IMG/VR virus record: IMGVR_UViG_3300028195_000001
Span: 1-64,000 of that record
Length of the DNA stretch: 64,000 bases
DNA from: a virus
Reading direction: 5' to 3' (one strand)
Shown: positions 1-38,190 of the stretch, in pieces
Layout: each line of letters begins with the position of its first letter
Position numbering within the stretch: the first letter of the stretch is position 1
Program-made: the position numbers and the translations under genes
Notes under the pieces: generated by a model
The model's input: only the letters and a program-made list of their open reading frames with translations
Databases searched by the model: none
Told to the model about the DNA's origin: nothing

Positions 1-225
1 TGTTGCGGTTGCTACATCCATAGGTGCATTGATACTACCTGGAACTGCGGTAGGTTGCAACCCCAAAGCTGTTGCGGTTGCTACATCCATAGGTGCATTG
101 ATACTACCTGGAACTGCGGTAGGTTGTAACCCCAAAGCTGTTGCGGTTGCTACATCCATAGGTGCATTGATACTACCGGGAACTGCGGTAGGCTGTAACC
201 CCGTAGCTGTTGCGGTTGCTACACT
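1..225. repeat. 69-bp tandem repeat, 3 full copies plus a partial one; may continue left of the window
   Basis: Units at 1-69, 70-138 and 139-207 are near-identical (tgttgcggttgctacatccataggtgcattgatactacc.ggaactgcggtagg.tg.aacccc...gc), and a fourth starts at 208. On the minus strand each unit encodes TAVPGSINAPMDVATATALGLQP. Confidence 0.9.
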
Positions 226-918
226 TAGACCGATACTTTGTGGCCCAGTTACCGAAGGTACTCCTATCGTAAAAATACGTGGGTAATAAATACGCGGGTG
301 ATCTTGTACCACCGTTTGGGTAACAGATACCGTTCCACCTGCACAACGATCAATTAATGAGTTTACCATTGGTGTATAACTTACAGGACTAGATCGTACA
401 CAGAATGGACTAACCCCGTTACCAAGTGCTTCAATTTCATCGCTGCTAAGAATGCGATCAAAAATAGCTGCTTCAGCAAGCATTCCATCCCAACAATGCG
501 CGTAATTACCTATATACACCGCATTACTGTTGCTATCCGCTGTTCCCGATGGAGTAGCTATTTCACTTATGCTAATAGACGAACCATTGAAATACATAAC
601 CGGATTATTAGCAACATCACTGTTATCATATGTAATCGCCACATGATGCCAAAGCGAATCAATCCACGTTTGCGCACTCGCTGATCGCCATTTTCCATCT
701 GTTCCACTAAACCAATGCTGAAACTCAGGGCTTCCCCCACCCAAATTGCGCAGGAAAAACTCATTGTTCTTGTACAGCATATTGCCGCCAGCGCCCTCAC
801 CAAGCCCCTGCATGTACGTCCAGATGGATAACGTAATCTGCGAATTATTGCCTGTGTACGCGGTAATAATCTGGTCGTTGTTATCAACGCCCCAGGTTGA
901 ACCAAATCCACGAGCCAT
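1..918 (-). CDS. LamG/concanavalin-A-like fold protein with C-terminal 23-aa tandem repeats (partial; 3' end lies left of the window)
   Basis: My own minus-strand translation from ATG 916-918 (CTAATG context overlapping the stop of 918..1397) stays open for 306 codons to base 1, so the ORF is absent from the track. MARGFGSTWG..LSIWTYMQG..WHHVAITYDNSD..VMYFNGSS..AIFDRILSSDEIEALGNG matches the LamG_3-type pattern. Track ORFs 29..286(+) and 567..911(-) are other frames of this gene. Confidence 0.75.
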   Translation of the reverse strand, partial: MARGFGSTWGVDNNDQIITAYTGNNSQITLSIWTYMQGLGEGAGGNMLYKNNEFFLRNLGGGSPEFQHWFSGTDGKWRSASAQTWIDSLWHHVAITYDNSDVANNPVMYFNGSSISISEIATPSGTADSNSNAVYIGNYAHCWDGMLAEAAIFDRILSSDEIEALGNGVSPFCVRSSPVSYTPMVNSLIDRCAGGTVSVTQTVVQDHPRIYYPRIFTIGVPSVTGPQSIGLSVATATATGLQPTAVPGSINAPMDVATATALGLQPTAVPGSINAPMDVATATALGLQPTAVPGSINAPMDVATAT

Positions 919-3121: not shown

Positions 3122-6100
3122 TTATCTCCTTTTAGTTGGGAAAGTGACACCTAGTTCACGTTCCGCTTCTTTCTTAGCTTTGGTATACATTGACGTACCA
3201 CACGAGAACTTCGAGAGAATGTCCTTACGTCGTGGAACATCATTAGTTTCATTCCAGGTTGCGATCATAAAATCTTTCACGCGGCTGGCTTTACTCTCAC
3301 CTCTGTAGAAATCTAATGCCGCCCGTTTGGTTTTGATCTCATCCACAAAGTTACCCGCTGGTCGGGAAGCAAATACATACACATGCTTTTCTTCGTTTGT
3401 TGCATGTGGACGAATACGTTCCTGACACTGTATCATCTCACCTATCTCGTAATCATCTGCGAACTTACGGGCAAAGGGATGAGTGAACGTGTAATGAGTA
3501 TGCCCTGCGTTCTTAGTATGGTACGGAGAGGGCAGGTAGCTCATCTCGTATGGGATAGGCTCATCTAACTCAAGTAAGCTCCCCCATGCCTGTATACGCC
3601 GCCACATGACGTTGTAAGGCATACGTGGTAAACCTATCATGACTGCTGCCGGAACGTCCTTGAATTTGTTAGTACCCCGCAGAGAGCCATAATGCCCCCA
3701 GTGTAACCTAGCTGCTGCATCTGGGTACGCTTCTTCAAACAGTTCCTTCAACACCCCGACTATACGTTTGTGGGTAACTACCAGTAGTTCAGGATGACGT
3801 TCTGCCAACACCTTAACTACATCTCGTGCGTCTTTGATAATAGGCGCGTCATAGAGCTTGTCCTTCACAGGTAAGGTAGACAGGTCGAGTTCCTGACCTT
3901 TAATGTCAAGTATTGGGTACTCAATTCTACGTTGACGTTCCCGCAACTCTTTACCTATCTGCTGCTCAATAGTGCTTAATGTCCAGTCACTCCCATGAAA
4001 CACCGTAGTTGTCGCATTAGGATTGTTGATGACGGGTTGAAACACTTCCACCGTCCGACCAAACATAGCTTCATAGAGTTCTTCCATCATCCCGGTAGCG
4101 TTAGCTGCTATAACAGGTGTGTTAGAACTTATACGTACCTTAGCCATCGGGTAAACCTCTAGTTTACCCGATACCAAGTGTATGCGACTGGGGAGCTTGT
4201 TCTCTGGGTCAGCTACATAAGATGCTATCTCCAACTTGATGGCATCGTAAACAAAAGGTACACAACGGGGGAGGACTTGATCTGGGTCATCCCCCAGGTA
4301 CTCCGGTTGGTAATATGTATGCAAATCGTTAGACGATATAAGATCAATTGTCTCAGCAAGTTTTTCCTGCATTTGCGAATCCAAAATTTTCAGGAAGCCT
4401 GCCCCAGAAATCATATCATTTTGTCCTACATTGGTGTTCATTACCAGACGCAGGGACGTAATGAGTTGCTCAATAGCGTCCAACGTTACCTGTTCCACAT
4501 CTAATTCCCAACCATCTCTGTGCGGGTACATCTCTCGTGCCTCACACACCATCGGGTCTTCCAGAACGTGGAAAGGTGATTCATCAACTACCACCAAGTT
4601 TTTGTAATCGTTAGCCAGAGAACCTTTGACCAAACTCTGGTGACGAAATACAGTGATTGGTTTTTCCTTGCGTGTCTCATTCTGTGAGAGATACCCTGCT
4701 TTAACACATGCGCCTTTGAACGGACAAGCTATCTCACAGAACTTACCAACGTTGTGATTGTTTGCTCCCAGGCGTTGCGCCATAGGAAAGTTTTGACAGT
4801 TCTCAATATCGCGTGCCTTGAAGTTAAACCACAGATTAGGGTTCGCACCTGCTTCCATAACATCTTCGTAGGCCACACGGAAAGGGGACACCCACATGAT
4901 AGACGTGAAAGAGAAATTATCCAGACGATCTTTCATCTTCCGCTTCTGGTCTATCATCAGATCACGTTCATCTGTGTCAACCCATTCACCTGTCGAGATT
5001 TCTTCTCCCAGGTTTTCAATCTGCTGTTCCAAGTCGGTACGTTCCACCAGCTTGTCAGCGTATGCTTCTCTAGCCATACGTTCCGCTACCCGTACTAACG
5101 TGTGCGTTTTACCTGCACCTGGGCCGGGGCGTAACAGAAGCATAACCCCTCTGCCCCGAACTGTTTTGCTATCATACTCATCCAAGAATCGAACAATACG
5201 ATGACGTAGGGAACGAGTACCTTCTCCCCGAATTTCCTGCAACGGTATCGGGTCTACTGTTTCGGGAACGTGGTCAGACTTTATCGCTGTGTAGTCTGGG
5301 ATAAACTCAGACTTCAAAGGTGCTGGCGACAAGGGAGCAACGTCTAATGTCTTAACACTATCCTCAAGGAATGAAATAATACCAGTTCCAAGAGCGACGT
5401 ATATATCAGTAAGGTCGTATTTAGAGGGTAAATCCCCCCATTGAATAGCCTTAACTTCCTCAAACCCTATGTCTTTCGCCCACCCAGATACGTTGGTGTT
5501 AAACGTTTCACCGGGTTCGTCATTGTCACCCAGTACCCAGATACGTTTGAAACCTGCGTCGTAAAGCGCCTGAGTTTTATGGTAACTCCAACTACTAGCA
5601 CCAAACGATGACGCAATATTACGATAACCTGCGTCCCACAAAGTTACCGAATCTTTTTCACCTTCTGTCAACAGGATAAGGTCATCATCTGGGTTGTCTT
5701 GGATTAACCAGAAGTAGTCCCTACGACTACCTGAGAGTGATACAGAACCTTTCCAAGTCTCATGTCGAAAGGTTGGATACCACCAGTCACCTGTTTCTGT
5801 AGCGGTACGCACATACGTTGGTATAACGTTTGCTAATTGACCTCTATAAGATGACAAACCTAGTTTGAAGTGGTTAATAGTTTCGTCCGACCAACCAAAC
5901 TGATACCAATAGTCACGCTGGACTTGCATGTGCGCTTGAATAACATCCCATTCAGACCAAAATTGAATAGGTCTATCAGATATTACACTAGGTTGTATGT
6001 CATAGAACGATGGTTCTACATCAAAAGACAACCCGGCTGACTCAAGGTATTGCAGAAGTTCTGGGTAAGTATGTCTGTGCTTACGTCCTTCGTTGTAGCA

Positions 6101-6301
6101 ACGACTACACCATACATGGTCATTGCGCCATACTAGACGGTCATCCCCAACAAAGGTAATGTCATTAACAGTCCACACATCCCCGTCTGTAACATCGGGA
6201 GAACAAAAAGGACAGGGTGATCTAAATAATCTGTCACCTTGTCCTTCTTCTACTTCCGGGAAATAGGAAGTTAAATCGTGCAGCGATCTGATAACGCTCA
6301 T
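3122..6301 (-). CDS. DNA primase (zinc ribbon + TOPRIM) fused to a P-loop NTPase/helicase domain
   Basis: 1059 aa. N-terminal CPFC..CSRC zinc ribbon. TOPRIM signature LLTEGEKDSVTLWDAG ... WVLGDNDEPGETF (E and DxD). Walker A LLLRPGPGAGKTHTL and Walker B LVVVDESP in the C-terminal half. Confidence 0.85.
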   Translation of the reverse strand: MSVIRSLHDLTSYFPEVEEGQGDRLFRSPCPFCSPDVTDGDVWTVNDITFVGDDRLVWRNDHVWCSRCYNEGRKHRHTYPELLQYLESAGLSFDVEPSFYDIQPSVISDRPIQFWSEWDVIQAHMQVQRDYWYQFGWSDETINHFKLGLSSYRGQLANVIPTYVRTATETGDWWYPTFRHETWKGSVSLSGSRRDYFWLIQDNPDDDLILLTEGEKDSVTLWDAGYRNIASSFGASSWSYHKTQALYDAGFKRIWVLGDNDEPGETFNTNVSGWAKDIGFEEVKAIQWGDLPSKYDLTDIYVALGTGIISFLEDSVKTLDVAPLSPAPLKSEFIPDYTAIKSDHVPETVDPIPLQEIRGEGTRSLRHRIVRFLDEYDSKTVRGRGVMLLLRPGPGAGKTHTLVRVAERMAREAYADKLVERTDLEQQIENLGEEISTGEWVDTDERDLMIDQKRKMKDRLDNFSFTSIMWVSPFRVAYEDVMEAGANPNLWFNFKARDIENCQNFPMAQRLGANNHNVGKFCEIACPFKGACVKAGYLSQNETRKEKPITVFRHQSLVKGSLANDYKNLVVVDESPFHVLEDPMVCEAREMYPHRDGWELDVEQVTLDAIEQLITSLRLVMNTNVGQNDMISGAGFLKILDSQMQEKLAETIDLISSNDLHTYYQPEYLGDDPDQVLPRCVPFVYDAIKLEIASYVADPENKLPSRIHLVSGKLEVYPMAKVRISSNTPVIAANATGMMEELYEAMFGRTVEVFQPVINNPNATTTVFHGSDWTLSTIEQQIGKELRERQRRIEYPILDIKGQELDLSTLPVKDKLYDAPIIKDARDVVKVLAERHPELLVVTHKRIVGVLKELFEEAYPDAAARLHWGHYGSLRGTNKFKDVPAAVMIGLPRMPYNVMWRRIQAWGSLLELDEPIPYEMSYLPSPYHTKNAGHTHYTFTHPFARKFADDYEIGEMIQCQERIRPHATNEEKHVYVFASRPAGNFVDEIKTKRAALDFYRGESKASRVKDFMIATWNETNDVPRRKDILSKFSCGTSMYTKAKKEAERELGVTFPTKRR

Positions 6302-28241: not shown

Positions 28242-28777
28242 GAGAAGATAACCTCTATGCCATGCTTAGCACAATAATTGTCAAAAGACTGGGTGGACAT
28301 GAACGTTGTAGAATGATGTCCCTCAAAGTAGAATACGACACTACCGTAATCGTCGCGTTTACCTTGTAGTTTACCATAGAACTTACCTTTGTCAACGATA
28401 CCCAATACTCCGACGGTATCACTCGTCCATACCATGCGAACAGGCCAATCGCTCTCAACCATGTTGTCAGGTAAGGGAAAGGTTACGGCTAATGCTAGGT
28501 CGGAGAATAAGTCCCAAGTAAGCTGCGGGATAAGTACCCCGGCTAACCGCATCGTTTCCCAACTCAGTTCGATAACCTTTGCCTCTGCAATGTAGCCTAT
28601 TCCGTGATAGTGGTACATGAATGTACCATCTTCGTTCACGAAGTACAGGAAGGGGTACTCATCTTCAAAATCAGCGTCCCACCCTGTAAGGACAAGGGTA
28701 TGGCTATCTTGGTCAAGGTATGCCCTAACGTATAGCAGGTTATGTGCTTCTGCTTTTCGTAACAGGTGTTCTAACAT
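28238..28777 (-). CDS. hypothetical protein (fused counterpart of the 27532/27906 gene pair)
   Basis: Track ORF 28238..28951. Start moved to MLEHLLRKAE (ATG 28775-28777, AAAGGAAA upstream), because the track N-terminus overlaps 28740..29213. Confidence 0.5.
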   Translation of the reverse strand: MLEHLLRKAEAHNLLYVRAYLDQDSHTLVLTGWDADFEDEYPFLYFVNEDGTFMYHYHGIGYIAEAKVIELSWETMRLAGVLIPQLTWDLFSDLALAVTFPLPDNMVESDWPVRMVWTSDTVGVLGIVDKGKFYGKLQGKRDDYGSVVFYFEGHHSTTFMSTQSFDNYCAKHGIEVIFS

Positions 28778-29213
28778 AACGTTTCCTTTCTTGGTAATCT
28801 TTTTCGCTGGTAAATCCAGCCTTGATACGTAGTTGCATTGCTGTGTGCGAGTAATAATTAGCATCAGCCGCAGCCCGGATGCTACTGTATTGTACACCAT
28901 TCCAGGTACAAGGTATAGACCTATCTCCCCTGTCTGGTACATCTTCATCACAGGTATACCCTGCTTGTATCCTATTCCATAACGTACCCGGTAAAATGCC
29001 TAATGTTATCGCGGCTTGCCGAATACTAGGGTAGGTCACATCATTCCAGGTACATTCGATAGCACTACCGGGCAATCGGGTATCAGCATCACAAACGTAC
29101 CCCCTACGTAGATGACGTTGGAAGGTATGAATATTATACCCATTAGCTTCCGCAGCACCTACTACTGATGGATAGGTTGTACCATTCCAGGTACATAGTT
29201 TAGTGTTGGGCAT
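28740..29213 (-). CDS. DNA-binding protein candidate with three tandem NUMOD1/HTH-like repeats
   Basis: Start at ATG 29211-29213 (GGAAGGA upstream). Three units of about 47 aa: CTWNGTTYPSVVGAAEANGYNIHTFQRHLRRGY, CTWNDVTYPSIRQAAITLGILPGTLWNRIQAGY, CTWNGVQYSSIRAAADANYYSHTAMQLRIKAGF. Confidence 0.55.
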   Translation of the reverse strand: MPNTKLCTWNGTTYPSVVGAAEANGYNIHTFQRHLRRGYVCDADTRLPGSAIECTWNDVTYPSIRQAAITLGILPGTLWNRIQAGYTCDEDVPDRGDRSIPCTWNGVQYSSIRAAADANYYSHTAMQLRIKAGFTSEKDYQERKRYVRTPVTKSRST

Positions 29214-29866: not shown

Positions 29867-30044
29867 GGGGCAATCCCGCTGTTTTCTACCTCTGTAAAAA
29901 AGGGGCAATCCGACCTTAAAAAAAAGGGGCAATCCGACTGTTTTACCGCGCCCCTAAAAGAGGCCAATCCGGTCAAAATTCAGACGAGAGATTACCCCTA
30001 AGTTAAAGCAACTGTCAGGAAGGCCAATCCCGCTGTTTTTCACC
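29867..30044 (-). repeat. cluster of five direct GG(G/C)CAATCC(N2-3)CTGTTTT(C)(T)ACC repeats in a 208-bp non-coding gap
   Basis: Copies start at 29867, 29902 (truncated), 29926, 29962 (variant) and 30022. All are in the same orientation and each is preceded by A4-8. Spacing is 35/24/36/60 bp. Confidence 0.85.
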
Positions 30045-30810
30045 AAACAAATTGCACCCAATCCAACGTTTGGACGTTCCAGTGATCGAGAACTTGCAGC
30101 AATCGTTCCGGGTTCAAAGACCGTAACGTATGGCCTTTAGAATTATCCTCTGGATGGTAAAAGCGGGTAGCCTTAATATCGGTATGGTTATCCCGGTCAA
30201 CTAACTCCACACAGGTGAGGATATGCCATTCACCTTCTGCCTCAGCTTCCAGATAACCTTGCCCGGAAAGCTCAGTAACAAAGCGCATCTTCAAAGGGTT
30301 AACAATTGCCGGGTAAAAGACCTTGACCAAATACTCAATATCATCGCGGTAAACCGCCCCGCTGGTGAGCCTTACCAAGTCACTTACAATCTTGTTACGT
30401 TGCCGATTAGCTTCTGCCCAGTGAATGCTTCGGGTCTGCCGGGTTTTCCAGGTATAGTGAACGTCCCAGATCAAGAAAATCGGGTTAAGCTGCCAGGGAA
30501 CGTTTTTATATACCCAGAACGCTTTTTGTAAATCTGAGAAGATACGTTCCAACCAAATCGAGTAATCAATCTTACGATTATGTCGCCAGAACGTATAGCG
30601 TGACTGAACCTGGAAGGCCGGTTGTCCTAACAATTTTCCCACGATCTTAATGACCGTTTCTTCCAGGTGATGCCCAACGTTTGCGACAACGTGACGACAG
30701 TGTTGGTACAGGGGAATGTTGAGAACACGGCCTATAACACCGGAAATAAGCCAGCCTAACAAGCAGTAAAACATAATCCACAACGTGTGATACAGTGTAT
30801 CTTGAGACAT
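30040..30810 (-). CDS. hypothetical membrane-anchored protein (first gene of the leftward arm)
   Basis: Track ORF to 30846 starts at TTG; ATG 30808-30810 (MSQDTLYHTLWIMFYCLLGWLISGVIG) is preferred. One N-terminal TM segment. Confidence 0.5.
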   Translation of the reverse strand: MSQDTLYHTLWIMFYCLLGWLISGVIGRVLNIPLYQHCRHVVANVGHHLEETVIKIVGKLLGQPAFQVQSRYTFWRHNRKIDYSIWLERIFSDLQKAFWVYKNVPWQLNPIFLIWDVHYTWKTRQTRSIHWAEANRQRNKIVSDLVRLTSGAVYRDDIEYLVKVFYPAIVNPLKMRFVTELSGQGYLEAEAEGEWHILTCVELVDRDNHTDIKATRFYHPEDNSKGHTLRSLNPERLLQVLDHWNVQTLDWVQFVW

Positions 30811-31040
30811 TATATTACCTTTCTGCTCCGCAGAGCAATTAGACAAGGTTTTTTATACTTTTTTTCCCTGTGTATACAGGGAGGTTAAATTACCTTGTCA
30901 GGGATACCTGATTAGAGAGTGGTTACAGCGTTACAACAGTGTTGGTACAGCGTAGGTACGGTGTGAAAACAAAGTAACCATGTTTATAACTGGTAACGTT
31001 GTCATTACAGGCAAAAGGTCAGACTCGCTCTCCACCCACA

Positions 31041-31069
31041 ATTTTACTACGATTCCTATCAAAATGCAA
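31041..31069 (-). promoter_or_regulatory. candidate leftward promoter at the left edge of the iterons (TTGCAT-N17-TAAAAT)
   Basis: Minus strand: TTGCAT 31064-31069, 17-nt spacer, TAAAAT 31041-31046. The -35 is weak. Confidence 0.3.
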
Positions 31070-31073
31070 GTTT

Positions 31074-31297
31074 TTTCACGTTTTGCAAGAAATTTCACGT
31101 TTTTTGACTAAAAACCCTAAAATTTCACGTTTTTTCCCAGAAATTTCATGAATTTTCACGTTTTTTCCCAGAAATTTCACGTTTTTTCATGGATTCATGA
31201 ATAATGTATATTTCACGAATTCTCCCCAAAACCCCATTTTTTTCTCTTTTTTTTCCGCACGATTTTTTTTCCTCAAAAATTCACGTTCTTTTTCACG
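31074..31297 (+). repeat. iteron array: nine same-orientation TT(T)CACG(T/A)T-rich repeats
   Basis: tttcacg at 31074, 31093, 31123, 31154, 31175, 31211 and 31291, plus variants at 31255 and 31280. Most are followed by T5-8. A 30/31-bp unit cacgttttttcccagaaatttca is nested twice. Confidence 0.85.
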
Positions 31298-31559
31298 ATT
31301 TTTTTCCTCCCACTGTGGAGTGTAACGTTGGCTGTAACGTTTGGGTCTTGACTACACGAAAAGCTATTAACGATGTACATACTAGAACAGATGGGCTACC
31401 CAGGGGCGGATTCTTGACTATAGGAAAAATGACCTGGAAAACGTGTAATAGACTATAGACATAGTAATTACAGTGTACTATTACATACCTATGCTATATA
31501 TGCATATAGGGGTTACATGAAGTGTAGGACAATTTGTGGGGTTTTGCCCTACTCAACTC

Positions 31560-31587
31560 AGTATACGGAATCGCTGAATCTTGTCAA
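31560..31587 (-). promoter_or_regulatory. leftward sigma70-type promoter (TTGACA-N16-TATACT) with no ORF downstream
   Basis: Minus strand: TTGACA 31582-31587, 16-nt spacer, TATACT 31560-31565. It points at the iterons, about 250 nt away. Confidence 0.5.
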
Positions 31588-31734
31588 GTTTTTGACTCTT
31601 TGGCTGAGTCCGCCAGGTGGACGCTTTTGTGCATGTTGCACAAATTGACTAATTCCGCCTTGAGTAAAAAAAAAGCCGCTATTGTGCAAAATGTACGAAT
31701 CGTGGGAATCTTAAAAATTGGTCGCTCAAAACGC

Positions 31735-31764
31735 TTGACTCGGTTTCAAATTTCATGGTATAGT
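31735..31764 (+). promoter_or_regulatory. rightward promoter (TTGACT-N18-TGgTATAGT)
   Basis: TTGACT 31735-31740, 18-nt spacer, TATAGT 31759-31764, preceded by TGG. Confidence 0.5.
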
Positions 31765-33369: not shown

Positions 33370-33400
33370 TACACACACATAGCACGCTTCGCATAGTCAA

Positions 33401-33420
33401 TACACTGTAAGTACAGTGTA
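33401..33420. repeat. 20-bp palindrome TACACTGTA-AG-TACAGTGTA
   Basis: 9-bp perfect arms (33401-33409 / 33412-33420) with a 2-bp centre. Geometry is operator-like. Confidence 0.7.
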
Positions 33421-33431
33421 ACGTAGTATGA

Positions 33432-33470
33432 AACCTAGCAACGTTAGATAGATTGTAACGTTGCTAGGTT
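33432..33470 (+). terminator. terminator-like hairpin after 32215..33369
   Basis: 15-bp perfect stem aacctagcaacgtta / taacgttgctaggtt with a 9-nt loop, followed by the T-rich attgctttgc. Confidence 0.45.
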
Positions 33471-33545
33471 ATTGCTTTGCTATACATTATAACATCATAA
33501 TATATTAATACTATATGATATACTATTACATTGTAATAACATTGT

Positions 33546-33611
33546 AGTTAGGCTTACCTAAAAATTATGTTAGTTTGTACCAACGTTGTGAGTTAGGTTA
33601 AGCTAAAAATT
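33546..33611 (+). repeat. two 21-bp direct repeats AGTTAGG.T.A..CTAAAAATT, 45 bp apart
   Basis: 33546-33566 and 33591-33611 match at 18/21 positions. Each contains an internal TTAG(G)..(C)CTAA dyad. Confidence 0.7.
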
Positions 33612-33691
33612 CCGAAAGGTTAGTCTAAAGCTCAGTTTGACCCCCTCACCGTATTTGTAAAAAATTTAGGGAAAGTGACATTTTTGAGGCC

Positions 33692-33739
33692 TATGGTACT
33701 GATTGTCTATATATATATATATAGCAAATCAGTACCATA
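33692..33739. repeat. 45-bp palindromic element, copy 2
   Basis: tatggtactgatt (33692-33704) / aatcagtaccata (33727-33739) flank gtctatatatatatatatagca. Near-identical to 8803-8847. Confidence 0.9.
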
Positions 33740-33819
33740 AGGGGTTTTCCTGTCACTTTGCCTGTTTTCCCACTGTATGCTAGCACAAAGTCACTTCCAA
33801 AGTATCACAAATGAAGCCT

Positions 33820-33832
33820 ATGGTACTGATTT
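33820..33832 (+). repeat. isolated left arm (half-site) of the palindromic element
   Basis: atggtactgattt follows agcct, as in copy 2 (aggcct). No right arm is present. Confidence 0.7.
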
Positions 33833-33864
33833 ATATAAATTTCAAAAATAAATGACAAAAACCC

Positions 33865-33893
33865 TTGACATTCATGACATATTATGGTACACT
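33865..33893 (+). promoter_or_regulatory. sigma70-type promoter (TTGACA-N17-TGgTACACT) at the head of the rightward arm
   Basis: TTGACA 33865-33870, 17-nt spacer, TACACT 33888-33893, preceded by TGG. A GTCACTT site lies at about +20. Confidence 0.6.
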
Positions 33894-33938
33894 TTAAGGG
33901 AGTTAAAACAATGTCACTTAGGGAGTAAATAGAAACTA

Positions 33939-35856: not shown

Positions 35857-36079
35857 TCCTCTAAGCGGTATGAACGATTGGGAGAAGCTACAGCTGCTCC
35901 GATTCTGTCGTAACCAAACGGTTGACCCCCGCGCTTTGTCCCTCTTGGAAGCGAAAGGCTTAATCGGGCCGCAGAAAAAGGGCGGGTACGTAGCTACCGT
36001 AATGGGGGGTATTGCCTATAATCAGTTGATGGAAAAGAGGCGTGATGCCAAGAAAAAAGAAGGAAATAGCGATAGCTGA
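35825..36079 (+). CDS. hypothetical protein
   Basis: 84-aa track ORF. The start is uncertain. Confidence 0.45.
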   Translation: MTMPSLQELHNPLSGMNDWEKLQLLRFCRNQTVDPRALSLLEAKGLIGPQKKGGYVATVMGGIAYNQLMEKRRDAKKKEGNSDS

Positions 36080-36653
36080 TGATCTAGTAGATGGTATACA
36101 GAGGCGTGAGGTTCTAAGATTGTATCTATCTGCAACACCTTTTGAAGAGATAGTTGAAAAAACTCAATTAGCACCCAAAACTATTAAAGCAGTTCTTAAA
36201 GAAGTTGAAAGTAATCTTAACTACGATATGGCTTCCCTGGCGGAGCGTATCACTCTTCTAAACTTAGCTCGTACTCAAGAACTCGTCTCTGTTGTTATGC
36301 CGTTGGCTTTGGAGGTTGATCTCAAAGCCATGCGTATTCTGCTGGATATTATTAAGCTGCAACAGAATATTGCTGAAGGCGTTAAACCCAAAGAAGAACT
36401 TAATAGCAAAGTTAATATCCATATTGAGAAGTTTGAGCAGACCCTTACCAGCACTAACCCACTGTATGCTATTGCGCAAGAGAACATGGAACATGAATGG
36501 TTAGGTCAGGCAGAACGGAGTATTGATGAGATTTACAATACTCCCGTTTTAGAAGCTCCGGCTCAACTTGATGACGAAATATTAGATTTTGCAACTAAAA
36601 TAGAACAAGAGTATGGTGATGAACTCGAAGCTATCCCCGCCGACGACGATTGA
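36045..36653 (+). CDS. terminase small subunit candidate
   Basis: It lies immediately upstream of and overlaps TerL. The N-terminus is basic with an HTH-like LRLYLSATPFEEIVEKTQLAPKTIKAVL. The call rests on position and architecture only. Confidence 0.45.
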   Translation: MPRKKKEIAIADDLVDGIQRREVLRLYLSATPFEEIVEKTQLAPKTIKAVLKEVESNLNYDMASLAERITLLNLARTQELVSVVMPLALEVDLKAMRILLDIIKLQQNIAEGVKPKEELNSKVNIHIEKFEQTLTSTNPLYAIAQENMEHEWLGQAERSIDEIYNTPVLEAPAQLDDEILDFATKIEQEYGDELEAIPADDD

Positions 36654-38190
36654 CGAGACTCCTCCGCTGATAGATCATCGGACGGGAGAGCCTAGAAAGA
36701 AACGTTACGTAACAATGAGTACCGCTGAGAAGTGGTGGATTGAGCAATCTCGCCTCTACCCTCATCGGTTTATTCAGTATGTCACCGGCCTAGAACCTGC
36801 TGAACACCATAAGATTTGGTTGGCGAATATCTTCGACTTCAAGCCAGAGAACGAGAAGTTCCGCTTGCAGTTCGTCGCACCGAGAGAGTCGGCCAAGACA
36901 ACAATAATGGTGTACTCTCTAGTGTGGTTCATTGCCCGTTTCCCCTGGATGTCTAATGCCATCATCTCTGTATCAGCGAAACAGGCTGAAGCTCGTCAGT
37001 CAATGATACGAGATATTATCAAACACGATCAACGTTTCCAAAACGTCTTCCCCTGGATTAAGGTGGATGAAAGACAACGTAATACTGTCAATGAGTTCTC
37101 TGTTTACGCAGAGGCTCTCTTTGATTCTAAATCTGGTGTTGCCACCCCCGTTCATTATAGTAAATGGCGGGGTATTCTCCAACGCTTGGGTTCACTGAAA
37201 GACCCTACTATGTTCAGTACCGGCGCAGGTGGCAAGGGTGTAATTGGACGACGTATCTCAGGGCTAATGATGCTGGATGATATTGTAGATGAGAGCCATT
37301 TGAAAGAAAACCTCCAACGGGATATGTACGACTATATCATGCGGACGCTTACTCCCTGTTTACAAGAAAATGCTAAGTGTATTAATATCGGCACGCGCTG
37401 GATGATCGGAGATGTCCCATCTCAGTTAATGGAGAACCCGGCGTGGCACACTTTAGAAATACAAGCTATCCGAGCAGATGAGAACGGGGTAGAGAAATCT
37501 TACTGGCCTGAATACTGGCCTATGGAGAAGCTCAACGCGAAACGCATCGAAGTCGGGCCTATAATGTTTAATGTAATGTATCAAAATGACCCGCAGGCTC
37601 TTGCTTCGGCTATGTTCTCACCCGACAAGCTACAAACGAAGCTCCCTAACCCTCTGCCGGAACTTGCAGGTATCATCATCGGTTGTGATCTGGCATTGTC
37701 CATCAAACAGGACGCAGACTTCACTGTGTTCGCCGCTGTCGGCTACGATAACAGCCAGAATCTATATGTTTTGGATATGCACCGGATTAAGACTACGCCC
37801 GACAAAGTAATTGAGGAGTTAGGCTATTTCGCTAACATGGTGCATGACCAATACGGGAAGCTGAACAAGCTCCTTATCGAAAAGGTCGCTTTCCAGTCTG
37901 CTTATCGTTATGCTCTGGTAGAGAAGTTCCCCTACCTTCCGGCTGACGAACTTCGTCCCATCGGTGATAAAGGCCATCGGGCTGACATCATGGCACGTAA
38001 GGTTAATAGCGGACAAATGTTCTTTAACACAGATAACCCGGTACACAAGCAGCTTATTACAGAATGTCTTAACTTTCCGTTGTATGGACATGATGACACT
38101 ATTGACGCTATTACTCTGGTACTCCAATACTTAGGTATGTCAGCAAGCAGCGCTTCCGTCCGCAGAATTAAGTCCAATTATCTTATGTAG
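36613..38190 (+). CDS. terL: terminase large subunit
   Basis: Walker A-like VAPRESAKTT, Walker B LMMLDDIVDE, and nuclease-domain Asp motifs IIGCDLALS and GHDDTIDAITL. 525 aa. The exact start is uncertain (36613, 36619 or 36715). Confidence 0.85.
   Translation: MVMNSKLSPPTTIDETPPLIDHRTGEPRKKRYVTMSTAEKWWIEQSRLYPHRFIQYVTGLEPAEHHKIWLANIFDFKPENEKFRLQFVAPRESAKTTIMVYSLVWFIARFPWMSNAIISVSAKQAEARQSMIRDIIKHDQRFQNVFPWIKVDERQRNTVNEFSVYAEALFDSKSGVATPVHYSKWRGILQRLGSLKDPTMFSTGAGGKGVIGRRISGLMMLDDIVDESHLKENLQRDMYDYIMRTLTPCLQENAKCINIGTRWMIGDVPSQLMENPAWHTLEIQAIRADENGVEKSYWPEYWPMEKLNAKRIEVGPIMFNVMYQNDPQALASAMFSPDKLQTKLPNPLPELAGIIIGCDLALSIKQDADFTVFAAVGYDNSQNLYVLDMHRIKTTPDKVIEELGYFANMVHDQYGKLNKLLIEKVAFQSAYRYALVEKFPYLPADELRPIGDKGHRADIMARKVNSGQMFFNTDNPVHKQLITECLNFPLYGHDDTIDAITLVLQYLGMSASSASVRRIKSNYLM

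What the first reader, a model, noticed from the sequence alone, without database searches (positions are those of the whole stretch)
31074..31297. Iteron array (nine same-orientation TTTCACG-T-run repeats) exactly at the strand-switch: candidate replication origin or master regulatory site
TTTCACG occurs at 31074, 31093, 31123, 31154, 31175, 31211 and 31291, with variants CGCACG at 31255 and TTCACG at 31280. All lie on the same strand. Most are followed by T5-8, which gives extreme T/A strand asymmetry. A longer unit, CACGTTTTTTCCCAGAAATTTCA, is nested twice at 30/31-bp spacing. The array sits in about 960 bp without credible genes, between the first leftward gene (30810) and the first rightward gene (31808). 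It is flanked by leftward promoters at 31041-31069 (weak) and 31560-31587. Direct repeats next to an easily melted T-rich tract at the divergence point of two replichore-like arms is the classic iteron-origin layout. No initiator is identifiable, however. The motif is not a DnaA box.
Basis: partly seen in the sequence, partly recalled or inferred. Interest (0 to 1): 0.7.

Follow-up and report, generated by a model that had tools for sequence, protein, structure and literature searches.

The report
Curved repeat array upstream of phage promoter
The nine same-strand repeats are real and form the most strongly bent DNA in this uncultured phage's 64-kb window; the same 13-base element sits in the same position upstream of promoters of a candidate bacterial defence gene, so it looks more like a promoter control element than a replication origin, though no experiment settles this.

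Summary
TTTCACG occurs 13 times in 64 kb. Seven copies lie on one strand within 31074-31297, plus two variants. The conserved unit is about 16 bp, AAATTTCACGTTTTTT.

New findings:
1. The array is predicted to be the most curved DNA of the window (78 degrees against a mean of 16). It also has the strongest ~10-bp A/T-tract periodicity.
2. It is not the easiest DNA to melt. There is no DnaA-box cluster and no initiator gene nearby. The replication genes lie 25-45 kb away. In relatives, GC skew follows gene orientation. So the origin reading has no independent support.
3. Read on the minus strand, the element is AAAAAACGTGAAA. Its last copy lies 5 nt upstream of a weak leftward promoter, TTGCAT-17-TAAAAT.
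4. The same 13-mer occurs in three copies, mostly 32-33 bp apart, in about 20 Firmicute species. It has the same orientation, and its last copy lies 6-7 nt upstream of the -35 in the loci with a clear one. The downstream genes encode AAA_14-DUF4143 ATPases, which match PADLOC's candidate defence family PDC-S01.

Best reading (about 0.45): a protein-binding, curved, promoter-upstream control array for the leftward operon. An origin (about 0.18) is not excluded.

The parts
31071..31086 (-). Repeat unit 1 (TTTTTTCACGTTTTGC; minus strand AAAACGTGAAAAAA). It is the promoter-proximal copy, 5 nt from the -35 TTGCAT.
31090..31105 (-). Repeat unit 2, AAATTTCACGTTTTTT (exact 13-mer TTTCACGTTTTTT)
31120..31135 (-). 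Repeat unit 3, AAATTTCACGTTTTTT, followed by CCCAGAAATTTCA
31141..31150 (-). Degenerate half-unit AAATTTCATG (CATG in place of CACG)
   Evidence: D12
31151..31166 (-). Repeat unit 4, AATTTTCACGTTTTTT. The 31-nt copy 31151-31181 is 94% identical to the copy at 31120-31150, which suggests a recent duplication.
   Evidence: D1
31172..31187 (-). Repeat unit 5, AAATTTCACGTTTTTT. Units 1-5 are in helical register (resultant 0.93 at 10.1 bp per turn).
31208..31223 (-). Repeat unit 6, ATATTTCACGAATTCT. The core is kept but the T-run is lost, and the unit is out of helical phase.
31252..31267 (-). Variant unit 7, TTTCCGCACGATTTTT. On the minus strand it reads GAGGAAAAAAAATCGTG, which resembles a ribosome-binding site plus a GTG start.
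   Evidence: (D9)
31276..31291 (-). Variant unit 8, AAAATTCACGTTCTTT
31288..31303 (-). Unit 9, CTTTTTCACGATTTTT. On the minus strand it reads GGAGGAAAAAAATCGTG.
   Evidence: (D9)
31050..31190 (.). Intrinsically curved core. The wedge-model peak is 78.5 degrees at 31111, against 53.6 for the next best peak. End-to-end/contour ratio is 0.34 against a median of 0.95. The top ten windows for ~10-bp AAA/TTT periodicity all overlap this region.
31221..31310 (+). The most pyrimidine-rich 90 bp of the window (79% T+C on the + strand)
31041..31069 (-). Weak leftward promoter-like site, TTGCAT-17-TAAAAT. The array lies immediately upstream of it, in the same register as in the Firmicute AAA_14-DUF4143 promoters.
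   Evidence: function is inferred
31560..31587 (-). Near-consensus leftward promoter TTGACA-16-TATACT (11/12). If it is active, the array is transcribed as an A-rich leader.
   Evidence: a counterpart exists in L125
31735..31764 (+). Rightward promoter TTGACT-18-TATAGT with TG
31626..31699 (.). Palindrome TTTGTGCA-TGT-TGCACAAA (31626-31644) and a degenerate copy 55 bp to the right (31680-31699), between the divergent promoters. This is the more conventional candidate for an operator pair.
   Evidence: (I3, D5)
31409..31508 (.). AT-rich, palindrome-rich block, the 4th-5th least stable DNA of the window. It holds the only inverted copy of CACGTTTT (31438, minus strand).
30040..30810 (-). First leftward gene (256 aa, orphan), 224 nt downstream of the weak promoter

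Best explanation
The array is a promoter-upstream control element, not a coding or RNA feature.

Read on the minus strand, which is the coding strand of the left arm, it consists of five well-conserved and four degenerate copies of AAAAAACGTGAAA. The five good copies lie on one face of the helix, and with their A-tracts they bend the DNA strongly. The last copy ends 5 nt upstream of a promoter with a poor -35 and a good -10 (TTGCAT-17-TAAAAT, 31069..31041). That promoter reads into the first leftward gene.

Inferred mechanism: a sequence-specific DNA-binding protein occupies the repeats. This is most likely a host factor, because the same element and geometry are conserved upstream of a bacterial gene family; a phage protein is less likely. 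The pre-bent DNA and the promoter-proximal A-tracts, which resemble an UP element, would then recruit or stabilise RNA polymerase at this weak promoter. A bound array could also act as a roadblock to transcripts coming from the strong promoter 490 bp upstream, which would give temporal control of the leftward operon.

Shown: the repeats, their phasing and predicted curvature, the register to the promoter-like site, and the identical element and register in about 20 bacterial species. Inferred: that the promoter fires, that a protein binds, and the sign of the effect.
For: - Core conservation with variable flanks: nine CACG cores lie in a conserved block of about 16 bp, and the flanks and spacings differ (19/30/31/21/36...). 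This is the pattern expected of a binding site rather than of recent duplication alone.
- The element has a single locus. CACGTTTT occurs 8 times in the window, five of them in the array plus one inverted copy 140 bp away.
- It has the strongest predicted curvature and the strongest ~10-bp A/T-tract periodicity of the window.
- A scan of 185,579 species genomes for two copies of the 13-mer returned 48 loci. About 30 have copies spaced 30-33 bp apart, and 21 carry an AAA_14+DUF4143 ATPase gene next to the repeats.
- In gene orientation these loci read (AAAAAACGTGAAA)x3, mostly 32-33 bp apart. In the loci with a clear -35 hexamer, CGTGAA is followed by 6-7 nt, TTGAC(A/T), a 17-18-nt spacer and TATAAT.
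- The phage reads AAAACGTGAAAAAAC-TTGCAT-17-TAAAAT. L320 reads GAAAACGTGAAAAAAACTTGACG.
- The pattern AAAACGTGAA-N(4-7)-TTG matches the window only at 31067-31084 and 31086-31103, against 0.01 expected.
- The element persists next to ATPases only 33-40% identical (L282, L301, L308; in L282 and L301 it is inverted relative to the gene), which implies selection on the sequence.
- The bacterial arrays are also predicted to be curved: 97.5th-100th percentile in 8 of 9 loci.
- No terminator-like site is predicted between the weak promoter and the gene start.
Against: - The -35 of the promoter matches the consensus at only 3 of 6 positions, and the scan tool did not call it. No transcription data exist.
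- The phage has nine copies over 230 bp at spacings of 19-36 bp. The bacterial loci have three copies, mostly 32-33 bp apart.
- The downstream phage gene is unrelated to the bacterial ATPase, and the window encodes no homologue of it.
- The binding protein is unknown in both systems. Nothing was found in the literature on DUF4143 or COG1373 regulation.
- The host is unknown, so a Firmicute host factor is only an assumption.
- Relatives of the phage do not carry the element. L125 and L269 have same-strand T-run arrays with other cores at the same position, and L270 and L130 have none.
- No comparable promoter lies downstream of the curved block in L125.
- A near-consensus promoter 490 bp upstream already serves the operon.
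Confidence: 0.45

Rival explanations
1. Replication origin. The repeats would be iterons for an unidentified initiator. Alternatively, they would be auxiliary elements of a transcription-activated origin of the T7/T4 type: the strong leftward promoter (31587..31560) transcribes through the AT-rich block 31409-31508 and over the pyrimidine-rich template 31221-31310, forming a purine-rich RNA-DNA hybrid that primes synthesis, and the phage primase-NTPase loads on the displaced strand.
For: - The array is a multi-copy, same-orientation, phased and curved set of repeats found at one locus only.
- A low-stability block lies next to it, and the most strand-asymmetric tract of the window is part of it.
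- It lies downstream of an 11/12 promoter.
- The phage encodes its own TOPRIM primase fused to a P-loop NTPase, an SF2 helicase and PolA, but no recognisable initiator. From my own knowledge, T7 and T4, which use promoter-primed origins, likewise lack a dedicated initiator.
- The cumulative GC-skew minimum falls at 31-32 kb.
- Relatives carry sequence-divergent repeat or T-run arrays at the same place, as expected if specificity evolves fast.
Against: - The skew is confounded with gene orientation. In relatives it flips in inverted gene blocks and is absent from the left arms.
- The array itself is not the least stable DNA.
- There is no DnaA-box cluster.
- No initiator-like or DNA-binding gene lies nearby apart from a sub-threshold HTH-repeat protein.
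- The replication genes are 25-45 kb away.
- The unit is short: a 7-bp core plus a T-run.
- The same element in bacteria sits at chromosomal promoters, for example next to dnaJ in L284, not at replicons.
Confidence: 0.18
2. DNA decoy or shared switch tied to a host defence gene. The nine copies would mimic the operator of host AAA_14-DUF4143 (PADLOC PDC-S01) genes. They would titrate the regulator of those genes, or the ATPase-nuclease itself. Alternatively, they would couple phage early expression to the same signal.
For: - The 13-mer, its orientation and its register to the -35 match those upstream of PDC-S01-type genes in about 20 species.
- The copy number is three times that of the bacterial loci, as expected of a sponge.
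- The 2.9 million IMG/VR viral contigs held no multi-copy array of this element next to a TTGAC -35-like site.
Against: - PDC-S01 is only a candidate defence family, and no function or regulator is known.
- The host of the phage is unknown.
- A phage would normally be selected to lose, not gain, a sequence recognised by a nuclease-type defence protein.
- Nothing here distinguishes this reading from ordinary use of a host transcription factor.
Confidence: 0.1
3. RNA-level element. Transcribed from the strong leftward promoter, the array gives an A/G-rich, C-poor leader. Its units look like translation-initiation regions (GGAGG/GGGA, an A-rich spacer, GUG-AAA). They would drive tiny upstream ORFs or act as ribosome-binding decoys.
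For: - Units 7 and 9 read GAGGAAAAAAAAUC-GUG and GGAGGAAAAAAAUC-GUG. The real start sites of the first leftward genes read AAGGAGAAAAAAUC-AUG in L125 and AAAGGAAAAAAUC-AUG in L269.
- Minus-strand mini-ORFs of 27-55 codons tile the array.
- The T-run polarity is the same in three relatives.
- The RNA over the array is 8-10% C.
Against: - SD-like sequences occur in only 5 of 9 units.
- The ORFs fall in all three frames and none is conserved.
- L125 has no minus-strand ORF of 20 codons or more over its T-run block.
- Folding is only weakly better than shuffles (z = -1.9 and -2.5).
- There is no Rfam match even at E<=1.
- This reading does not explain the identical element at untranscribed positions upstream of bacterial promoters.
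Confidence: 0.07
4. Packaging or terminus-associated repeats, like the P1 pac hexamers, the SPP1 pacL bent DNA or the T7 short repeats next to the terminal repeat. The genome ends would then lie at the divergence point.
For: - Contigs of five of seven TerL relatives end 2-5 kb upstream of TerL, at the start of the rightward arm (L127, L132, L262, L264, L265).
- L265 ends 35 nt from a TTTTTTCCCACC motif.
- Short phased repeats and bent DNA are typical of pac sites (own knowledge).
Against: - The array is 4.7 kb from the putative small terminase gene.
- One full-length (82.3-kb) assembly of this phage bridges the array. It extends at least 9 kb beyond the window's left edge, and L273 also runs past that edge, so that edge is no hard end.
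- The break points in relatives are not at a constant position (48, 81 and 365 nt from the -35, or inside genes). They coincide with the boundary between conserved and hypervariable DNA, which is a common cause of assembly breaks.
Confidence: 0.04

Closest known systems
Upstream AAAAAACGTGAAA repeats of Firmicute AAA_14-DUF4143 ATPase genes (PADLOC candidate defence family PDC-S01).
   Same: - Identical 13-nt core.
- Same orientation relative to the downstream gene.
- Last copy 5 nt (phage) or 6-7 nt (bacteria, loci with a clear -35) upstream of the -35, with a 17-18-nt spacer and an A/T-rich -10.
- Copies spaced at whole numbers of helical turns.
- Strong predicted curvature.
   Different: - Three copies, mostly 32-33 bp apart, against nine copies at 19-36 bp.
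- Good -35 (TTGACA) against poor -35 (TTGCAT).
- The downstream gene is an ATPase-nuclease in bacteria and an orphan 256-aa protein in the phage.
- The function and binding factor of the bacterial element are themselves unknown.
UP elements and phased A-tract curved DNA upstream of promoters: E. coli rrnB P1, Clostridium perfringens plc, Bacillus phage SP82 Alu156 (own knowledge, not checked in papers here)
   Same: - A-tracts at about -38 to -60 on the coding strand, with GAAAAAAC directly upstream of the -35.
- A-tracts repeated in helical phase.
- Large intrinsic bend.
   Different: - A strictly conserved non-A/T core (CGTG) in every unit.
- Units reach to about -260, far beyond the reach of the polymerase alpha subunit.
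- Both points suggest a sequence-specific protein rather than polymerase alone.
Iteron-type origins: lambda ori, P1 oriR, iteron plasmids (reviews listed, not read; details from own knowledge)
   Same: - Several same-orientation direct repeats in helical register.
- Intrinsic bending.
- An A/T-rich, strand-asymmetric tract alongside.
- Non-coding position in a control region.
   Different: - The unit core is 7 bp (about 16 bp with A/T flanks) rather than 17-22 bp.
- No initiator gene at or near the site.
- The least stable DNA lies outside the array.
- No host-factor boxes.
Transcription-primed phage origins: the T7 primary origin, T4 oriF and oriG (own knowledge)
   Same: - A strong promoter followed by A/T-rich DNA.
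- A phage-encoded TOPRIM primase fused to an NTPase, plus PolA, and no dedicated initiator.
   Different: - Those origins have no repeat array.
- Here the promoter-to-array distance is about 250-490 bp.
pac-site repeat arrays: P1 pac hexamers, SPP1 pacL (own knowledge)
   Same: A short motif repeated seven to nine times at irregular spacing, with bent DNA.
   Different: - Not adjacent to the terminase genes.
- The assemblies give no sign of ends here.

Membership tests
Iteron-type replication origin | Three or more same-orientation direct repeats spaced at whole helical turns | tested here: met
   There are nine cores. The first five are in register (resultant 0.93 at 10.1 bp per turn), while all nine together give only 0.4-0.55. 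The unit is shorter than classical iterons.
Iteron-type replication origin | Adjacent DNA-unwinding element that is the least stable DNA of the region | tested here: inconclusive
   The array is at the 98th percentile of low stability. A less stable block lies at 31409-31508, about 100 bp to the right. The least stable DNA of the window is at 33480.
Iteron-type replication origin | Cognate initiator gene at or next to the repeats | tested here: not met
   - Pfam, PHROGs and NCBIfam find no Rep, O, DnaA or helicase-loader signature in 27-36 kb.
- The neighbouring genes are orphans.
- There is only a sub-threshold HTH-repeat protein at 28740-29213, and its structure model is of low confidence (pLDDT 43).
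Iteron-type replication origin | Host-factor (DnaA) boxes | tested here: not met
   TTWTNCACA occurs 7 times in the window against 7.9 expected. One copy (31683, minus strand) lies in the intergenic region and none in the array.
Iteron-type replication origin | Replication starts there | not testable with these tools
   This needs marker-frequency data. GC skew is confounded with gene orientation.
AAAAAACGTGAAA promoter-upstream element of AAA_14-DUF4143 (PDC-S01) genes | Core 13-mer AAAAAACGTGAAA in several direct copies | tested here: met
   There are four exact 13-mers (31093, 31123, 31154, 31175), one with T4 (31074), and four variants.
AAAAAACGTGAAA promoter-upstream element of AAA_14-DUF4143 (PDC-S01) genes | A-run-CGTG-A-run on the coding strand of the downstream gene, with the last copy 6-7 nt upstream of a -35 hexamer followed by a 17-18-nt spacer and a -10 | tested here: met
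   The phage has 5 nt, then TTGCAT, a 17-nt spacer and TAAAAT. The -35 is weak (3/6).
AAAAAACGTGAAA promoter-upstream element of AAA_14-DUF4143 (PDC-S01) genes | Three copies at 32-33-bp spacing | tested here: not met
   Spacings are 19, 30, 31, 21, 36, 44, 24 and 12, against mostly 32-33 in the bacterial loci.
AAAAAACGTGAAA promoter-upstream element of AAA_14-DUF4143 (PDC-S01) genes | Downstream gene encodes an AAA_14-DUF4143 ATPase | tested here: not met
   tblastn of two such ATPases against the window finds no hit better than E=2.5. The downstream gene is an orphan of 256 aa.
UP-element / phased A-tract upstream curved DNA | A/T-tracts at about -40 to -60, repeated with a period of about 10-11 bp, giving intrinsic curvature | tested here: met
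   The Fourier power of AAA/TTT at 10-10.5 bp is the highest in the window. The wedge-model bend is 78.5 degrees against a mean of 15.8 (sd 8.8). The wedge parameters were recalled from memory; the Fourier result does not depend on them.
UP-element / phased A-tract upstream curved DNA | Contact with the RNA polymerase alpha C-terminal domain and stimulation of transcription | not testable with these tools
   Needs in-vitro transcription or footprinting.
Terminase recognition (pac/cos) repeat array | Located at or next to the terminase small-subunit gene and at the packaging start or ends | tested here: not met
   - The array is 4.7 kb upstream of the putative TerS gene at 36042-36653.
- One full-length assembly bridges the array, extending at least 9 kb beyond the window's left edge; L273 also runs past that edge.
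- The physical ends themselves cannot be tested here.

The most novel reading that the evidence does not exclude
The phage array is a nine-copy mimic of the cis-element that precedes AAA_14-DUF4143 (PDC-S01 candidate defence) genes in Firmicutes. It would work as a DNA sponge for the protein that binds that element, either the regulator of the defence gene or the ATPase-nuclease itself. Alternatively, it would wire phage early genes to the same host signal. Either way this would be a cis-acting DNA anti-defence or defence-sensing device, and it would also reveal the operator of an uncharacterised defence family.
Probability: 0.1. Interest if true: 0.8.

Novelty: new variant of a known kind. 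Interest (0 to 1): 0.45.

Why it matters
The phage belongs to an almost entirely uncharacterised group. Nearly every gene in the window lacks a family assignment, and its primase-NTPase defines a family of more than 80 sequence clusters (50% identity) that gave no match in the annotated libraries searched here.

Locating the control region gives a handle on the phage's early programme. The wider point is the shared 13-base element. It is conserved upstream of AAA_14-DUF4143 genes, which PADLOC lists as a candidate phage-defence family, across about 20 species and down to 33-40% protein identity. I found no description of it in the literature I could search. It therefore marks an unknown DNA-binding specificity that can be tested directly with one oligonucleotide.

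If the phage array uses or titrates that factor, it links a phage early switch to a host defence gene. If the array instead turns out to be the origin, it would show that a promoter-type element has been taken over for replication. If neither holds, it is an ordinary curved upstream activating region.

Tried and rejected
- **Known phage:** there is no near or distant DNA match in INPHARED, and TerL is at most 26% identical to known phages.
- **Known RNA:** no Rfam match at gathering score or at E<=1, and no tRNA.
- **Close relatives:** I looked for relatives that keep the array. TerL homologues exist at 35-65% identity. Their divergent regions share no alignable DNA with the window, and only the two genes just upstream of TerL are conserved. 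The first leftward gene and the 1059-aa protein are orphans at word-index sensitivity. Other assemblies of the same phage are 100% identical over the array, so copy-number variation could not be assessed.
- **Two-copy motif scans:** the IMG/VR and metagenome scans returned chance hits and (TTTCACG)n heptamer microsatellites, which are a different thing. The metagenome scan did not return the source contig.
- **N4- or crAss-like layout with a virion RNA polymerase:** rejected, because the 2727-aa protein is a tape-measure protein.
- **Array of AEP primase start sites:** 5'-GTG(A)-3' is recognised by the pRN1 and NrS-1 PrimPols (PMC8718748). Rejected, because the phage primase is a zinc-finger/TOPRIM enzyme of the DnaG/T7 gp4 type and relatives' T-run units mostly lack GTG.
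- **Rho-evading C-poor leader:** only the array is C-poor. The first 200 nt of the leader have more C than G.
- **Coding region:** the window holds only short ORFs in all three frames and L125 has none. L269 has an open 172-codon frame over its T-run array that may be chance.
- **The 157-aa triple-repeat protein as binder:** it gives only sub-threshold HTH/NUMOD1 hits, no PDB match and a low-confidence model. No fold search was run.
- **The same element plus a promoter in other phages:** 74 IMG/VR hits, a number I could not tell from chance (not calculated; the collection's total size is not given), and only one has a second copy.
Full report
**What is there**

The window is a novel long-tailed phage. 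It encodes a TerL (36613-38190), a ClpP-like head protease, and a 2727-aa tape-measure protein. Its left arm is almost entirely orphan genes. There is no DNA match to 50,697 deposited phages.

Genes left of 30810 lie on the minus strand and genes right of 31808 on the plus strand. The 997-bp gap between them has no called gene in three independent assemblies.

TTTCACG occurs 13 times in the window, about the number chance predicts. Seven copies sit on the plus strand within 224 bp. Aligning the nine CACG cores shows a conserved block of about 16 bp, AAATTT-CACG-TTTTTT, with variable flanks and spacings of 19, 30, 31, 21, 36, 44, 24 and 12 bp. The element is essentially confined to this locus.

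**Physical properties**

- The ten 200-bp windows with the strongest 10-10.5-bp AAA/TTT periodicity in the whole 64 kb all overlap the array.
- A wedge-model calculation puts the largest bend of the window at 31111: 78.5 degrees, against 53.6 for the next best peak and a mean of 15.8 with sd 8.8. The end-to-end/contour ratio is 0.34 against a median of 0.95. The wedge parameters were recalled from memory; the Fourier result does not depend on them.
- The first five cores lie on one helical face.
- The array is not an easily melted tract. It sits at the 98th percentile of low stability, and the least stable DNA nearby is 31409-31508.
- 31221-31310 is the most pyrimidine-rich 90 bp of the window.

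**Layout of the gap**

A near-consensus leftward promoter lies at 31587..31560 and a rightward one at 31735..31764. Between them is a perfect palindrome, TTTGTGCA-TGT-TGCACAAA, with a degenerate copy 55 bp away. This pair is the conventional candidate for an operator.

The array lies 250-490 bp downstream of the strong leftward promoter. It lies immediately upstream of a weak site, TTGCAT-17-TAAAAT (31069..31041). That site is 224 nt from the first leftward gene, with no predicted terminator in between.

**Tests of the origin reading**

- The cumulative GC skew turns at 31-32 kb, which is exactly where gene orientation turns. In relatives, small inverted gene blocks flip the skew and the left arms lack the expected sign. 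The skew therefore carries no independent information.
- There is no DnaA-box cluster.
- No initiator-like protein was found within several kb. The neighbouring genes are not conserved even in the closest relatives.
- The 1059-aa protein at 3122-6301 is a zinc-finger/TOPRIM primase of the DnaG/T7 gp4 type fused to a P-loop NTPase, and it heads a family with 84 members at E<1e-30.
- An 82.3-kb assembly of the same phage shows an SF2 helicase and PolA just beyond the window's left edge. The replication genes are therefore 25-45 kb from the array.
- A phage with this enzyme set and no initiator could use a promoter-primed origin, and the strong promoter, AT-rich block and purine-rich transcript would fit that. 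This is inference only.

**Relatives**

TerL homologues of 50-57% identity with an intact divergent region were examined.

- L125 has the same pair of divergent promoters. Its largest predicted bend (72 degrees, against 50 for the next) falls at the same relative position, on a block of same-strand T-runs with different cores: GATAG-T5/6 and T5-7-CCC.
- L269 has seven or more units of the form CAN-T5/6-CC on the same strand.
- L270 and L130 have none.
- T-runs of five or more are concentrated in this gap: 13 of 65 in the window, 7 of 21 in L125 and 11 of 41 in L269.

The family-level feature is therefore a polar T-run block, curved in two of the three cases. The TTTCACG core is specific to this phage.

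**The informative comparison**

I scanned one genome per species (185,579 species) for two copies of the 13-mer within 4-30 nt. This gave 48 loci. About 30 have copies spaced 30-33 bp apart. Twenty-one carry an adjacent gene for a protein of about 430 aa with AAA_14 and DUF4143 domains. That protein matches PADLOC's candidate defence family PDC-S01 at E=1e-144 to 1e-166.

In gene orientation these loci read (AAAAAACGTGAAA)x3. In the loci with a clear -35 hexamer, the last CGTGAA is followed by 6-7 nt, then TTGAC(A/T), a 17-18-nt spacer, a TATAAT-like -10, a ribosome-binding site and ATG.

The phage minus strand reads AAAACGTGAAAAAAC-TTGCAT-17-TAAAAT. It has the same orientation and its register differs by one or two bases. 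L320 reads GAAAACGTGAAAAAAACTTGACG. The register was not part of the search pattern. In the window, AAAACGTGAA-N(4-7)-TTG matches only at 31067-31084 and 31086-31103, against 0.01 expected.

The bacterial arrays are also predicted to be strongly curved. The element persists next to ATPases only 33-40% identical, in an Elusimicrobia (L282, L301) and a Clostridia (L308) MAG, though inverted in L282 and L301. That argues for selection on the sequence, and so for a specific binding protein. I found nothing in the searchable literature on this element or on regulation of DUF4143/COG1373 genes.

**Interpretation**

The most economical reading is that the array is a promoter-upstream control element: a set of binding sites on pre-bent DNA placed to act on the weak leftward promoter. 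It may also block or modulate transcripts from the strong promoter upstream. I give this about 0.45.

- The origin reading keeps about 0.18. It is compatible with the anatomy, and the two readings are not mutually exclusive.
- A decoy or shared-switch relation to the host defence gene is the most novel reading not excluded (about 0.10).
- RNA-level readings have some support. Units 7 and 9 look like genuine ribosome-binding sites with GUG starts when compared with real start sites in L125 and L269. Against this, there are no conserved ORFs, folding is weak and there is no Rfam match. These readings also do not explain the bacterial loci.
- A packaging or terminus role is suggested only by relatives' contigs ending near this region. 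It is weakened because one full-length assembly of this phage bridges the array and, together with L273, runs past the window's left edge.

**Limits**

The host is unknown. No transcription, binding or replication data exist. The weak promoter is below the scan's threshold. The binding factor is unknown in both the phage and the bacteria.

Noticed in passing
L274-L321 (species genomes), e.g. L278:4597-4700, L284:5657-5780, L318:5307-5440: Three direct copies of AAAAAACGTGAAA, mostly 32-33 bp apart, end 6-7 nt upstream of the -35 (where one is clear) of AAA_14-DUF4143 ATPase genes (PADLOC PDC-S01). They occur in about 20 gut Clostridia and Bacilli MAGs, and in inverted form in Elusimicrobia. 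This looks like an undescribed conserved operator or activator site of a candidate defence gene.
   Followed up: partly
window 31626-31699: A perfect palindrome, TTTGTGCA-TGT-TGCACAAA, and a degenerate copy 55 bp away lie between the divergent promoters. This is a likely operator pair for an unidentified repressor.
   Followed up: partly
window 30925-30968 and 30697-30711: Four tandem 11-bp units (ACAGCGTTACA, ACAGTGTTGGT, ACAGCGTAGGT, ACGGTGTGAAA) lie in the leader of the first leftward gene. The 15-mer ACAGTGTTGGTACAG recurs inside that gene. TGTAACG occurs twice in inverted orientation at 31321-31340, on the other side of the array.
   Followed up: no
window 31346-31362 and 31412-31428: The direct repeat TCTTGACTA(C/T)A(C/G)GAAAA occurs twice, 66 bp apart. 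TTGACT occurs six times on the plus strand within the gap, and most copies have no usable -10.
   Followed up: no
window 33370-33938: This is a second long non-coding gap, in the right arm. It holds the least stable DNA of the window (about 33480) and a long hairpin with a (TA)n centre (CCTATGGTACTGATT...AATCAGTACCATAAGG, about 33690-33742). CCTATGGTACTGATT recurs at about 33818, and a TTGACA/TG-extended -10 promoter lies at about 33866. Relatives L125 and L270 have similar (TA)n-centred palindromes.
   Followed up: no
window 1-286: 69-bp tandem repeats encode ILPGTAVGCNPKAVAVATSIGAL-type units on the plus strand. They lie within a 582-aa Laminin_G_3 gene on the minus strand. Other assemblies (L271, L273) stop aligning contiguously here and realign in shifted register, which points to a different repeat copy number. 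The window edge may coincide with an assembly break.
   Followed up: partly
window 3122-6301 (minus strand): This 1059-aa protein has an N-terminal zinc finger, a TOPRIM primase domain, a P-loop NTPase and a cysteine cluster. It heads a family of 84 representatives at E<1e-30, about 1050-1100 aa long, with no Pfam match for the window protein.
   Followed up: partly
window 28740-29213 (minus strand): This 157-aa early protein is built from three repeats of about 45 aa (CTWNGxxYxSxxxAA...). It gives sub-threshold HTH/NUMOD1 hits and its structure model has low confidence. It is a possible binder of direct-repeat DNA.
   Followed up: partly
L127, L132, L262, L264, L265 (start of each locus): Contigs of five of seven TerL relatives end 2-5 kb upstream of TerL, at the start of the rightward arm. 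This could be a physical end, or an assembly break at the border between conserved and hypervariable DNA.
   Followed up: partly
L142-L261 (metagenome contigs), e.g. L225:941-1300, L149:640-720: Perfect heptamer microsatellites, (TTTCACG)n and (TTTTACG)n, with up to 21 copies are common in metagenome contigs, often next to genes. They are unrelated to the phage array.
   Followed up: no
L269:4563-5081 (minus strand): The reading frame of the first leftward gene stays open for 60 codons upstream of the annotated start, across the T-run array. It gives five in-frame E-K-(I/M/C) units. This may be a real N-terminal extension or chance.
   Followed up: no
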